A stretch of 64,000 nucleotides of DNA, from assembly GCF_988243305.1 (NCBI RefSeq), contig NZ_OZ547136.1; one strand, written 5' to 3'. Position numbers: made by a program. Below are positions 61,001 through 64,000 of the stretch, one piece after another (position 1 is the first letter of the stretch; each line of letters begins with the position of its first letter).

Positions 61001-64000
61001 AGAGTGTTGCTCAGGATATTGTCGGCTTTAGTCTGAGGTGAGGTGGGGCCTTCATTGTTTTCGTGTTCAATAAATAATTTAGGTTAATTAGTATTATTAG
61101 TGGAAGTTATGTGATCTGTTATGTTGTCTTGTACGCACTTAACACTGGTTACGTACCGGAACACTATTAGAGTATGTTATGGCTCTGTTACAGTTTATAG
61201 GTATGAAAAAATATAATCTTTCCTGTATGAAATAATATTCTTATGGTGTGTGGGGTATGGTCTGTATACCATCATTTTTATGGTGAAGTTAAATATCTGT
61301 AGAGGCCTTAAGCTGGGTCGCTGTTTTTACTTAATGGTACAGAAGTATTAATAGCGGTGTTGCCTGTGGCTACCCGATACTGGCTTTTGTGAATGTCAGA
61401 TTACTTCCTGTAAGTGATTGAATGGTACTTCCTTAAACTCAATTCTATGAGGTGTGTTTTTACCATTGTAATTCGTACTGGTCCTCAGTTTAAGTGAGTC
61501 TTACTGTACTCTGAAATATTACCTCTTTGGAGTAATGAGGTAATACGAAACAGTTTTATCAGGTTGTCTGTGCTGCTGGTTACCTCGTTTATTAATGCCG
61601 CGGTACGGCGTTTCTGTACTCTCAGTATTTATGTAATTCCACCTTCCTGTAACTTTTATAAAGTAAGGACTATAAAATGTATAATGCTAATCCCAATTAC
61701 GAAATGGACTTCATGATTCTGAAAGACGTGAATGAACACATGGAAGGTCTGTTTCAACGTTTTTCTAAACTGTTACCTTTCAGAATTGATTTTGCCTACA
61801 GGAAAGACACGCCCAGTTTTGGTCATTCCTGTAGGCACAGTATGTGTATTGAAATGCACCGCTTACTTAGTGAAACCCAAACGATGCTGGCGGGATATTA
61901 CTGGGTAATGGAATATACGTCAAACAAGGGACTTCATATTCATTTTATCGGCTACTTGGATGGGCAACGTCACAAGAAATTTTATCGGATATCCAGGCAA
62001 CTGGGAGATATCTGGAGTCGGATCACGGAAGGGGAGGGTTATTTTCACCTGTGCAGTACTAAAGACAAATACTCGGTGCGTATCGATCACGTGATTCACT
62101 ATAGTGATAAGTCTGCGGTAGACGGTTTACGTTACGCCCTTAGCTACCTGGCTAAACAGGATCAGAAAGAACACGGTATTATTCTGGGCCGTAGCAGGCT
62201 TCCCGAAAAAAGCAACCGGGGCCGACCACGACATAACTGAATTACAGTTGTATTAGGTATTAAAATTAAGTTTCTGTAAGTTGTTGGGAGGTGCTTGAGT
62301 TAATAGGCAGAAGAGGGCGGGGCGCTTTGTCATCAGTGTAGGGGACCCGAATTTCTGCCGTGGTACCTCAGTGGATCGGATACAGGTAACGAATATGGTT
62401 CATAAATCTGACAGTGATGAATTAGCTGCACTGAGGGCAAACATAACTTGAAGCTTATGGGATTGAATGGCGACGTAAACCGCAGAGTCCTGTGCAGTGC
62501 GTTTCCGTATTATCCACGGATGAGAAAGTTGCGTTATTTTGTCGACTGTTTCGCGGGCGTGATGATGTATGGGCCCTTCGATGGGAAAGCAAAACCAGCG
62601 GCAAATCAGGGTACTTGCGGGCCTGTGCTAACGAATGGCAGCCGGGAATAGCGGTAAACTCCGGATAAAATGTGGGGACTGCGCTCACCGTCAGTTGATC
62701 CCTGTATCTGATCTCATCATCTACCACTACACGGTTTAACGGGGCCGCGTCATCTCGGCGTTGCCCGATAAATTCTTTTCTACGTATAATAACCAGAATG
62801 AACGTGTAAAACACCATAGTATTCAGAACTATAAACATCGAAACCTGCCATATTGACCAGAATAAATGACCTTATTTTTACTGAAATTTAAGGAGAACAC
62901 CGTTGGAAGTAGAAATGTGGGATGGTGGCTTACAAGAACAGGAAGTATTGGCTATCGAGAAAATAAAAGCTGCTTTTTCAGTCAACGTATCTAAGCCTGA
63001 CAAGCCTTTCCGTAGCGGTTCAATTAGTGAGCAGCTAAAAAGCTATGGTTTTATCGGCAATGAAATGTTCCCTTGGAAAGGTTATGCAGGTTTTCGATTT
63101 GTTGAGGCAAAAAAAGAGGGGGAATTCGATTTAGTTATTGTAACACACTGCAACGTGATCATTGTTGAACTGAAAGACTGGAACCATCAGCCTGTAACCG
63201 CACGCGGAGATACTTGGTTTAAAGGCGATAAGAACATGGGGCGCTCGCCAGTAAGCGTGACTCGTAGCAAAAAATTCATGCTGGACAAAAAACTCAAGCG
63301 TCTGGTAGACCGTTTTACGAACAAAGGCTATATCCCGATTGTTCATTTTTTTGTTGTGATGACCGGCAATGCAGATTTCAGCGCGCTGCCGGAGGAACAA
63401 CGGCGCCATACGATCTCGTTAAAAGATTTCCTGAAGTTTGCCGATCGCGGGAGCTTCAATAACTATTTCAAACCGCACCCAGCTACCAAGGTTCTTAACA
63501 AGGATTTCCATCTTTTCGATGATTTGTTCCTAGGGCCTCAGACGGCACCAAAAGCCTTGAGAGTTAATGGCTATGAAGCTAATGATATGATTTTCGAACA
63601 TCCTAAAAAGGTGTATCGAGAATATCTGGCAAAATCTGAGATATCAACGAACAGCGAAGCGCTACTCAGAGTATGGAATTTTAGAAATATAACGGGAACG
63701 AAAGCGAATACCCCGGAAGGACGAGCTCAGATTGTTTCACGTGAGCGCGAAGTGTTACAGCACATCAATCACCAGAATCGTGACCTGTATAACCACTGTC
63801 TCAGGTCTTTGACGAGTTTTCAGAAAGACGAGGTGACGGCCGAGTATAGCGAAGTCTACGAAGTTCCGCCGGGTCATGTCCGGTTTAATGAGTTTATCGG
63901 AAAATATGGTAAGAACTTTTCTGATATGGACCGCTTGAATGTGGTGAAACTGCTCATTGCAAAGTTTAGTGATCTCCATGAGATGAAAATTGCGCACAGG

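What the first reader, a model, noticed from the sequence alone, without database searches (positions are those of the whole stretch)
62241..62902. A 660-bp stretch between the Rep-like gene and the NERD gene with only weak overlapping ORFs
This segment contains only short, mutually overlapping ORFs (62448..62651 plus strand; 62455..62838 minus strand) with unconvincing composition. The NERD gene's RBS lies at its 3' end. It may hold a small regulatory RNA, a small toxin/antitoxin-type peptide, or a promoter for the downstream gene.
Basis: seen in the sequence. Interest (0 to 1): 0.25.

Follow-up and report, generated by a model that had tools for sequence, protein, structure and literature searches.

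The report
Decayed iee stub before Mokosh operon
The 660-bp "empty" stretch is the broken first 118 codons of the IS-excision-enhancer gene iee, followed by the upstream control region of a Mokosh anti-phage operon that replaced the rest of that gene; it is an ordinary genomic scar that RefSeq already annotates.

Summary
The stretch is not anonymous. It has four parts.

- 62241-62394 is the intergenic DNA of an SpLE1-like island, 98% identical to E. coli O157:H7.
- 62395-62727 is a pseudogene stub of iee (IS-excision enhancer, ECs_1305, an AEP/PrimPol-helicase, Pfam AEP-TOTE). It has a 17-bp deletion that leads to a stop at 62449, a 1-bp deletion after 62650, and truncation at codon ~118 of 786. 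All catalytic residues lie beyond that point.
- 62728-62733 is 6 nt of unassigned junction sequence.
- 62734-62902 is the native leader of a type I Mokosh operon (mkoA/mkoB). It arrived with the operon and is ~91% identical to copies on Chimaeribacter and Citrobacter DNA. It carries a positionally conserved sigma-70-like site (TTGCCC-N18-TATAAT, 62761-62790).

The minus-strand ORF is a chimera created by the junction and the 1-bp deletion. There is no Rfam match, no unusually stable fold and no terminator. PGAP already marks the pseudogene in hundreds of genomes. Only the "promoter" suggestion survives, and only as an inference. Interest is low.

The parts
61677..62240 (+). Context: inovirus-Gp2 / YagK-YfjJ-type Rep-like gene of the SpLE1-like island backbone (equivalent of ECs_1304).
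   Evidence: ORF. PGAP names it 'inovirus-type Gp2 protein'. Pfam hits REP_ORF2-G2P and YagK_YfjJ_C are weak and below the gathering score. It is part of an 8.8-kb stretch 98.4% identical to Sakai SpLE1.
62241..62394 (+). Original intergenic region between the Rep-like gene and iee. It presumably holds the iee 5' UTR or promoter, but none was detected.
   Evidence: 151 of 154 positions are identical to O157:H7. The consensus scan finds no promoter-like site here. The fold z-score is -1.24, which is unremarkable.
62395..62727 (+). Pseudogene stub of iee (IS-excision enhancer; AEP/PrimPol-SF2 helicase; Pfam AEP-TOTE), covering codons 1 to ~118 of 786. Lesions: a 17-bp deletion after 62441 that leads to TGA at 62449-62451, a 1-bp deletion after 62650, and loss of everything 3' of 62727.
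   Evidence: PGAP pseudogene 'TOTE conflict system archaeo-eukaryotic primase domain-containing protein; frameshifted; incomplete' at the equivalent of 62395-62730. Alignment to the intact O157 gene. PF22548 positions 1-43 of 230, E = 1.1e-12. The intact orthologue is annotated 'IS-excision enhancer IEE', ECs_1305, in Sakai SpLE1.
62448..62651 (+). It lies in frame 0, out of the ancestral iee frame, and is judged spurious.
   Evidence: Frame arithmetic. No Pfam or NCBIfam hit. The exact sequence is absent from a 15-billion-protein collection. Its length is what chance gives (P = 0.55). The ORF ends differently in each related copy.
62455..62838 (-). It is an accidental chimera. The start and first ~37 codons come from the Mokosh leader. 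The rest is two different antisense frames of iee, fused by the 1-bp deletion.
   Evidence: Antisense translations of intact iee show the two pieces in different frames, each closed by stops. The ORF spans the 62727/62728 junction. 86-aa truncated variants circulate. Compared with Chimaeribacter, 7 codons change synonymously and 11 non-synonymously, with differences at codon positions 5/5/11, which is not distinguishable from non-coding. No homologues were found for the 88-aa Chimaeribacter version of this ORF. Gene callers have labelled it 'hypothetical protein' (EFJ63547.1).
62728..62733 (.). Six nucleotides (TACACG) at the junction that match neither iee nor the available Mokosh relatives.
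   Evidence: BLAST limits: SpLE1 homology ends at L001 9487 = window 62727, and Mokosh-module homology starts at L001 9494 = window 62734. Alignment.
62734..62902 (+). Native upstream leader of the type I Mokosh operon, imported with mkoA-mkoB. GC is 38% over 62728-62899. It contains the promoter-like site, a conserved proximal core (about 62850-62902) and the RBS AAGGAG at 62890-62895.
   Evidence: About 91% identical as part of a 6.57-kb module to a Chimaeribacter arupi plasmid and to Citrobacter sp. On2M. The proximal ~75 nt are also conserved in Klebsiella and Pectobacterium. In E. coli it occurs only at this junction, in 295 genomes. GC.
62761..62790 (+). Candidate sigma-70 promoter of mkoA: TTGCCC-N18-TATAAT, 10 of 12 consensus matches. 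The predicted transcription start is near 62797, giving a 5' UTR of ~106 nt.
   Evidence: Consensus scan. At the homologous position the Chimaeribacter copy has TTGTCC-N18-CATAAT. Function is inferred, and the number of sites found does not exceed the shuffled expectation.
62903..64000 (+). 5' part of mkoA (NERD + Ser/Thr kinase + Upf1-like SF1 helicase; 1652 aa in identical copies), which runs off the window. The start is probably TTG 62903 rather than the annotated ATG 62915.
   Evidence: PADLOC MkoA PDLC03921, 2206 bits over the full length, and MkoB, 503 bits, for the next gene in L001. Pfam NERD, Pkinase, AAA_11 and AAA_12. TTG/ATG/GTG is conserved at the 62903 position, while 62915 reads ATT/ATC/ATA in most of 24 relatives.

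Best explanation
The stretch is a recombination scar inside an SpLE1-like integrative island. The backbone normally runs integrase, AlpA-like regulator, YfjI/DUF3987 gene, Gp2-like Rep gene, then iee. Here iee is dead. A 17-bp deletion stops translation after 18 codons, a second 1-bp frameshift follows, and everything beyond codon ~118 is gone. That includes the catalytic residues D142, D144, H178 and D216 and the whole helicase. The lost part was replaced by a 6.6-kb type I Mokosh anti-phage module (mkoA-mkoB) that brought its own ~170-bp AT-rich leader. That leader most likely supplies the mkoA promoter (TTGCCC-N18-TATAAT, 62761-62790), a ~106-nt 5' UTR and the RBS. Read-through from upstream is also possible, because no terminator lies in between. 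The iee stub itself does nothing and persists because nothing removes it. Shown: the homology, the lesions, the junction, and the foreign origin and conservation of the leader. Inferred: promoter activity and the inertness of the stub.
For: RefSeq/PGAP annotates the same bases as a frameshifted, C-terminally missing TOTE-AEP pseudogene, followed by the 1652-aa NERD/AAA gene. The intact gene at the same position in O157:H7 is 786 aa and is named IS-excision enhancer IEE, ECs_1305, in Sakai SpLE1. Base-level alignment gives the 17-bp and 1-bp deletions and the end of homology at 62727. Pfam AEP-TOTE matches positions 1-43 of 230 at E = 1.1e-12. Domain limits and catalytic residues come from PMC9943667 and bioRxiv 10.1101/2023.06.07.543989. 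The backbone is 98.4% identical to SpLE1 over 8.8 kb up to 62727, and the Mokosh module is ~91% identical to Chimaeribacter, Citrobacter and Klebsiella copies from 62734 onward. MkoA and MkoB are identified by PADLOC, and the domain set matches the published type I Mokosh. The leader is conserved and has a positionally conserved promoter-like site. No terminator lies on the plus strand.
Against: No transcript or transcription-start data were available, so promoter use is untested. The promoter scan finds no more sites than shuffled sequence gives (2 found against 1.3 expected). The distal half of the leader, which holds the -35/-10 site, is shared only with the Chimaeribacter and Citrobacter copies. 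It is absent from the Klebsiella and Pectobacterium copies. Substitutions against O157 iee are 17 synonymous to 12 non-synonymous. Most of that divergence therefore arose while the allele was still functional, and the date of inactivation is unknown. A second junction class ends only 2 bp away, which hints that the truncation point may not be random.
Confidence: 0.9

Rival explanations
1. The iee stub is retained for a reason. It may be a transcribed leader that couples mkoAB to the old iee or Rep promoter. It may instead be a preferred recombination boundary or homology arm at which SpLE1-like islands exchange cargo.
For: No terminator lies between the Rep-like gene and mkoA. About 1,045 of 5,426 complete E. 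coli genomes keep only partial iee copies, against 684 with at least 80% of the gene. A second, unrelated junction class (AR0085, MB06102, ZYB39, CP52E) ends at 62725, 2 bp from this one. The stub alleles are mosaics, which implies recombination within the stub.
Against: Other stubs end elsewhere: around 62606-62624 in Nissle, ST131 and clone D i14, and around codon 300 at an IS66 in W444. The stub accumulates frameshifts, internal deletions (57 bp in ZYB39) and stops, as neutral DNA does. Two coincident breakpoints among a handful of classes is weak statistics. No repeat or site-like motif was found at the break.
Confidence: 0.1
2. The 127-aa minus-strand ORF (62455..62838), or its first ~35 hydrophobic codons (MFIVLNTMVFYTFILVIIRRK...), encodes a real small membrane or toxin-like protein divergent from mkoA.
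For: The ORF is longer than chance (P = 0.02). Gene callers have called it (EFJ63547.1; a 113-member cluster). The start codon and an open frame are also present in the Chimaeribacter and Citrobacter leaders. Nine codons (TMVFYTFIL) differ only synonymously, and 11 of 21 differences fall on third codon positions.
Against: The ORF crosses the junction and joins three unrelated pieces, two of them antisense iee frames fused only by the 1-bp deletion. Overall 7 codons change synonymously and 11 non-synonymously, much like a stop-containing control frame. There is no stop inside the conserved part, and the downstream sequence differs completely between hosts. 86-aa truncated variants exist. The 88-aa Chimaeribacter version found no homologue in 5.8 billion proteins. 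The window ORF has no Pfam or NCBIfam hit. The Klebsiella and Pectobacterium leaders are not homologous to the part of the leader that holds it.
Confidence: 0.03
3. The stretch encodes a small regulatory RNA or a structured cis-regulatory element.
For: It is a long non-coding gap next to a defence operon. The proximal ~75 nt of the leader are conserved across four enterobacterial genera. There is a two-copy direct repeat, ATAATAACCAGAATGAA and ATATTGACCAGAATAAA, 64 bp apart.
Against: No Rfam family reaches significance; the best is sR2 at E = 0.55 and 17 bits against a gathering score of 42. Predicted folds are no more stable than shuffles, with z from -1.24 to +0.81. There is no promoter-plus-terminator pair. 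Leaders of more distant mkoA relatives are unrelated, so the conservation tracks phylogeny.
Confidence: 0.03

Closest known systems
iee / ECs_1305, the IS-excision enhancer of E. coli O157:H7 SpLE1 (AEP/PrimPol-SF2 helicase; Pfam PF22548 AEP-TOTE; AEP 'Z1568-like family')
   Same: It occupies the same position directly after the Gp2-like gene in the same island backbone (98.4% identity over 8.8 kb). It has the same start codon, ~90% nucleotide identity over codons 1-118, and a match to the first 43 positions of the AEP-TOTE profile.
   Different: It is not a gene any more. There is a stop after 18 codons, two frameshifts, and 85% of the coding sequence is missing, including motifs A-C of the AEP domain and the whole helicase. 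It derives from an allele ~10% diverged from the O157 one.
Type I Mokosh defence system (MkoA helicase-kinase + MkoB PLD nuclease; Millman et al., bioRxiv 10.1101/2022.05.11.491447)
   Same: The downstream genes match the PADLOC MkoA and MkoB models over their full length. The last 169 bp of the finding are the upstream leader that accompanies mkoA in other Enterobacterales.
   Different: The finding covers only the non-coding leader, not the system itself. This leader has a 13-nt deletion after 62879 relative to all six compared relatives. No promoter of a Mokosh operon has been mapped, as far as the papers read here show.
Gene vestiges at cargo boundaries of satellite-like, tRNA-integrating defence islands (integrase, AlpA, Rep-like backbone; PMC12458937)
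   Same: The island has the same type of architecture (integrase, AlpA-like regulator, Rep-like initiator, defence cargo), with a fragment of a former gene left at the boundary of the exchanged cargo.
   Different: The vestige here is a cargo or accessory gene (iee), not an integrase. The island is the SpLE1 family rather than the tRNA-Leu elements described in that paper.

Membership tests
IEE / AEP-TOTE primase-helicase (PF22548 + SF2 helicase) | Sequence homology to the AEP-TOTE domain | tested here: met
   The frame-2 translation of 62447-62667 hits PF22548 at E = 1.1e-12 and 48.5 bits, but only at profile positions 1-43 of 230. It is ~90% identical at the nucleotide level to iee codons 1-118.
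IEE / AEP-TOTE primase-helicase (PF22548 + SF2 helicase) | Uninterrupted reading frame of about 786 codons | tested here: not met
   A 17-bp deletion leads to TGA at 62449. A 1-bp deletion follows after 62650. Homology ends at 62727. PGAP flags it as frameshifted and incomplete.
IEE / AEP-TOTE primase-helicase (PF22548 + SF2 helicase) | AEP catalytic residues (D142, D144, H178, D216) | tested here: not met
   The residue numbers come from bioRxiv 10.1101/2023.06.07.543989. The window copy stops at codon ~118, so none of them is encoded.
IEE / AEP-TOTE primase-helicase (PF22548 + SF2 helicase) | C-terminal SF2 helicase domain (residues 291-786; K451, R735) | tested here: not met
   The intact O157 protein has ResIII, DEAD and Helicase_C at residues 423-738. 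Nothing homologous follows 62727 in the window.
IEE / AEP-TOTE primase-helicase (PF22548 + SF2 helicase) | Position in an SpLE1-like island, directly after the Gp2-like gene | tested here: met
   Gene order and 98.4% identity to Sakai SpLE1 up to the break.
Type I Mokosh operon (leader/promoter region of mkoA) | The downstream genes are MkoA (helicase + kinase) and MkoB | tested here: met
   PADLOC MkoA at 2206 bits and MkoB at 503 bits on the identical copy L001. Pfam finds NERD, Pkinase, AAA_11 and AAA_12. MkoB had no Pfam hit, so the published PLD nuclease domain was not confirmed here. Only the first 366 codons of mkoA lie inside the window.
Type I Mokosh operon (leader/promoter region of mkoA) | The upstream segment is co-inherited with mkoA in unrelated genomic contexts | tested here: met
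   62734-62902 aligns with the region upstream of mkoA after avs1c on a Chimaeribacter plasmid and in Citrobacter. The proximal core also aligns in Klebsiella and Pectobacterium.
Sigma-70 promoter | -35 and -10 hexamers with 16-18 nt spacing, and a mapped transcription start | tested here: inconclusive
   TTGCCC-N18-TATAAT at 62761-62790 scores 10 of 12 and is conserved as TTGTCC-N18-CATAAT in Chimaeribacter. The number of sites does not exceed shuffles, and no transcription-start data were available.
Small regulatory RNA / known RNA family | Match to a curated RNA family, or a stable conserved structure with its own promoter and terminator | tested here: not met
   The best Rfam hit has E = 0.55 and is below the gathering score. 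Fold z-scores run from -1.24 to +0.81. There is no plus-strand terminator.
Type I toxin-antitoxin / small hydrophobic peptide gene | A short conserved ORF with its own stop, under purifying selection, with an overlapping antisense RNA | tested here: not met
   The minus-strand ORF is chimeric, has no stop within the conserved part, shows no clear coding signal (7 synonymous against 11 non-synonymous codon changes) and varies in length. The 88-aa Chimaeribacter version found no homologues. Antisense RNA cannot be tested with these tools.

The most novel reading that the evidence does not exclude
The iee stub may mark a non-random cargo-exchange boundary of SpLE1-like islands. Two unrelated replacements start within 2 bp of each other: the Mokosh module here at 62727, and a second Gp2-type module in AR0085-class genomes at 62725. 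The stub alleles are recombinant mosaics. In complete E. coli genomes, partial iee copies outnumber near-full-length ones. If the end of iee codon ~117 is a preferred break or rejoining point, the stub would be a functional docking arm for swapping defence cargo. One candidate cause is the gene product's own microhomology-mediated end-joining around IS elements.
Probability: 0.08. Interest if true: 0.4.

Novelty: already known. Interest (0 to 1): 0.1.

Why it matters
It matters little in itself. The pseudogene is already flagged by NCBI's pipeline in hundreds of genomes, and iee and Mokosh are both characterised.

It is useful as a clean example of how defence cargo is exchanged in SpLE1-type islands. 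A 6.6-kb Mokosh module with its own leader replaced iee from codon 118 onward.

It is also a caution for annotators: a 127-aa "hypothetical protein" in public databases is an artefact of that junction.

One modest by-product concerns the reported scarcity of IEE in ExPEC. In complete E. coli genomes, about 1,045 carry only partial iee copies and 684 carry a near-full-length gene. The scarcity may therefore partly reflect decay rather than the gene never having been acquired.

Tried and rejected
- **Known RNA families.** An Rfam scan of 61600-63200 at a permissive E-value found only a chance-level snoRNA hit.
- **RNA structure.** Folds of the intergenic region and of the leader on both strands were no more stable than shuffles.
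- **Relic of the gene upstream of mkoA in BE2-5.** I tested whether 62728-62899 is a remnant of the methyltransferase, DEAD helicase or GIY-YIG nuclease genes found there. tblastn and blastn found nothing beyond the RBS and start region.
- **IS end or repeat.** A sensitive blastn of the leader finds it in E. coli only at this junction, and it has no other copy in the window.
- **Coding test of the minus-strand ORF against Chimaeribacter and Citrobacter.** The result was not distinguishable from non-coding. A protein search with the 88-aa Chimaeribacter version found nothing.
- **Neutral-rate test with diverged E. coli copies (L039, L040).** This was abandoned because those copies are recombinant mosaics, not uniformly diverged.
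- **AR0085-class junction sequence against this island's own Gp2 upstream region.** No similarity was found.
- **Errors.** Several early calls failed on coordinates, length limits or missing files.
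Full report
**Observation.** The Rep-like ORF ends at 62240. An AAGGAG sits at 62890-62895, 7 nt before a TTG at 62903. The description is confirmed. The same ORF list also shows two more plus-strand ORFs, 62492..62668 and 62635..62739. Their translations (…LSTDEKVALF…RGRDDVWALRWESKTSGKSGY… and …KLRIKCGDCAHRQLIPVSDLIIYH…) read like the start of a real protein.

**What the left two-thirds is.** Megablast of 62241-62902 against 5,426 complete E. coli genomes finds the stretch in 1,748 of them, 280 over its full length. In those records PGAP annotates the equivalent of 62395-62730 as a pseudogene: [quoted passage not shown]. It lies between an "inovirus-type Gp2 protein" gene and a 1652-aa "AAA domain-containing protein" gene.

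In O157:H7 the same backbone carries an intact 786-aa gene at that position. In the Sakai reference it is ECs_1305, "IS-excision enhancer IEE", inside the element SpLE1. IEE is a characterised protein. It has an N-terminal AEP/PrimPol domain (residues 1-290) and an SF2 helicase-like domain (291-786). It has polymerase and microhomology-mediated end-joining activities that promote excision of IS629-type elements (PMC9943667). Its catalytic residues are D142, D144, H178 and D216 (bioRxiv 10.1101/2023.06.07.543989).

**Lesions.** Alignment with the intact O157 gene shows the following.
- The start codon is kept at 62395.
- A 17-bp deletion after 62441 shifts the frame and gives TGA at 62449-62451, leaving an 18-codon ORF.
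- The ancestral frame continues in frame 2 (62447-62667). That translation matches Pfam AEP-TOTE positions 1-43 of 230 at E = 1.1e-12.
- A 1-bp deletion after 62650 shifts the frame again. The rest of the ancestral frame is the ORF 62635..62739.
- Homology ends at 62727, about codon 118.

No catalytic residue and no part of the helicase is left. Substitutions against the O157 allele are 17 synonymous and 12 non-synonymous. The stub therefore comes from an allele that diverged by ~10% while still under selection and was inactivated later.

The plus-strand ORF 62448..62651 lies in frame 0 and is simply out of frame with iee. The minus-strand ORF is a three-part accident. Its ATG and first ~37 codons lie in foreign DNA to the right of the junction. 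The rest consists of two different antisense frames of iee. In the intact gene these are separate and closed by stops, and they were joined only by the 1-bp deletion.

That accounts for its unusual length (P = 0.02 in simulation). It has been called "hypothetical protein" (EFJ63547.1), and 86-aa truncated variants occur. Neither ORF has a Pfam or NCBIfam hit, and the 88-aa Chimaeribacter version found no homologue in the large protein collection.

**What the right third is.** The gene starting at 62903/62915 and its neighbour are MkoA and MkoB of a type I Mokosh anti-phage system. PADLOC gives 2206 and 503 bits over the full length. Pfam finds NERD, protein kinase and Upf1-like AAA_11/AAA_12 domains. 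This agrees with the published description (bioRxiv 10.1101/2022.05.11.491447).

The 172 bp at 62728-62899 (38% GC) occur in E. coli only at this junction, in 295 genomes. From 62734 onward they are homologous to the region upstream of mkoA elsewhere. One copy lies on a Chimaeribacter arupi plasmid, where the module follows an AVAST type 1 system. Another lies in Citrobacter sp. On2M. The proximal ~75 nt are also conserved in Klebsiella and Pectobacterium.

BLAST of the identical E. coli copy gives a clean picture. 8.8 kb are 98.4% identical to SpLE1 up to window 62727. Then 6.57 kb are ~91% identical to the Mokosh modules from window 62734 to the end of mkoB. Six nucleotides (TACACG, 62728-62733) are unassigned. 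The leader therefore arrived with the Mokosh module.

**How it most likely works.** The leader contains the only good plus-strand sigma-70-like site in the region, TTGCCC-N18-TATAAT at 62761-62790. The homologous position in Chimaeribacter reads TTGTCC-N18-CATAAT and is the only site the scan reports there. This predicts a transcription start near 62797 and a 5' UTR of ~106 nt.

No plus-strand terminator lies between the Rep-like gene and mkoA, so read-through from upstream is also possible. These steps are inferred, because no expression data could be consulted. Evidence for an RNA gene is absent. The best Rfam hit has E = 0.55, and predicted folds are no more stable than shuffles. Leaders of more distant mkoA relatives are unrelated, so the conservation follows phylogeny rather than a shared structure.

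**The one weak hint for the minus-strand ORF.** Against the Chimaeribacter leader, nine consecutive codons (TMVFYTFIL) differ only synonymously, and 11 of 21 differences fall on third codon positions. Overall, however, 7 codons change synonymously and 11 non-synonymously, about the same as a control frame that contains stops. The sequences downstream of codon ~36 are unrelated between hosts. I rate a real peptide at about 3%.

**Population context.** Of 5,426 complete genomes, 684 carry at least 80% of iee in one place and about 1,045 carry only partial copies. Stub classes differ in their end points.
- Nissle, ST131 and clone D i14 end near 62606-62624, next to a DUF417 gene.
- W444 ends near codon 300 at an IS66.
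- AR0085, MB06102, ZYB39 and CP52E end at 62725, followed by unrelated DNA that leads to a second Gp2-type gene.

The last class ends 2 bp from the break in the window. The stub alleles are also mosaics. MB06102 has the AR0085-type junction but lacks the 17-bp deletion. S1-SRL-01-C combines a Nissle-like 5' part with the window's 3' part. This may indicate a preferred breakpoint and recombination within the stub. With only a handful of classes it may equally be coincidence, so I leave it as the low-probability novel reading.

**Comparison with the known, and verdict.** The stretch works like nothing in particular. It is a gene vestige plus an imported leader, comparable to the gene fragments described at cargo boundaries of satellite-like defence islands (PMC12458937). 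It is a relic of the IEE/AEP-TOTE family, with homology and synteny met, but not a member in any functional sense, because reading frame, catalytic residues and helicase all fail.

The pseudogene is already annotated in RefSeq, and both flanking systems are published. The finding is real, explained and ordinary. The small-RNA and toxin-peptide options are not supported.

Noticed in passing
window 62903-62917: The annotated mkoA start (ATG 62915, PGAP) is probably four codons short. TTG 62903 sits 7 nt after AAGGAG and is conserved as TTG, ATG or GTG in 24 relatives, while position 62915 reads ATT, ATC or ATA in most of them.
   Followed up: partly
window 62879/62880: The mkoA leader lacks 13 nt (…AAGCAAATTTAG…) that are present in all six compared enterobacterial relatives. 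The deletion removes one of two AAAT(T/C)TA(A)G-like repeats just upstream of the RBS. Its effect on expression is unknown.
   Followed up: no
window 62786-62802 and 62850-62866: A two-copy direct repeat, ATAATAACCAGAATGAA and ATATTGACCAGAATAAA, with 64-bp spacing in the Mokosh leader. The second copy lies in the core conserved across genera and contains a TTGACC. It could be an operator pair or it could be chance.
   Followed up: no
window 62725-62727; L004 8367, L008 4279, L009 4408, L043: A second, unrelated iee junction class (…CATCTACC|TGAGGTAGTGTAC…, leading to another Gp2-type gene and often hit by IS3) ends 2 bp from the window's break. The stub alleles are recombinant mosaics: the 17-bp deletion is absent from MB06102 and W444 but present in AR0085, Nissle and ZYB39.
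   Followed up: partly
E. coli complete genomes: Partial iee copies (about 1,045 genomes, including B2 ExPEC such as Nissle, ST131 and clone D i14) outnumber near-full-length iee (684 genomes). A published survey that required >70% protein coverage noted a reduced number of IEE in B2 and D strains. Part of that may be decay rather than absence of the island.
   Followed up: partly
window 59007-59204: A 65-aa ORF that is 57% identical to residues 24-84 of the adjacent YfjI/DUF3987 protein (59405-60856). It is a decayed duplicate of that gene's 5' end, and PGAP calls it a small 'DUF3987 domain-containing protein'.
   Followed up: partly
window 58853-58905: A perfect 9-bp tandem repeat (GCTATTGTC, 5.9 copies) just downstream of the AlpA-like regulator gene. 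It produces an ORF that ends in (LLS)n.
   Followed up: no
window 60857-61676: An AT-rich gap of ~820 bp (30-45% GC) with no convincing ORF, between the YfjI gene and the Rep-like gene. An IS3 is inserted at the corresponding place in O157 strain JEONG-1266. It is a candidate origin or regulatory region for the Rep-like protein.
   Followed up: no
L011 (SFGN01000089.1, 'MAG: Lachnospiraceae bacterium'): This contig encodes the mkoA 5' part at 100% protein identity, and its 139 nt around the start (leader and first codons) are identical to the window. It is almost certainly a mis-binned E. coli contig in that metagenome-assembled genome.
   Followed up: no
L005 (E. coli BE2-5) 2839-15401: A mkoA/mkoB pair about 91% identical sits directly after a methyltransferase, a DEAD/DEAH helicase and a GIY-YIG nuclease. 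Mokosh is embedded in, or adjacent to, a different multi-gene defence locus in that genome.
   Followed up: no
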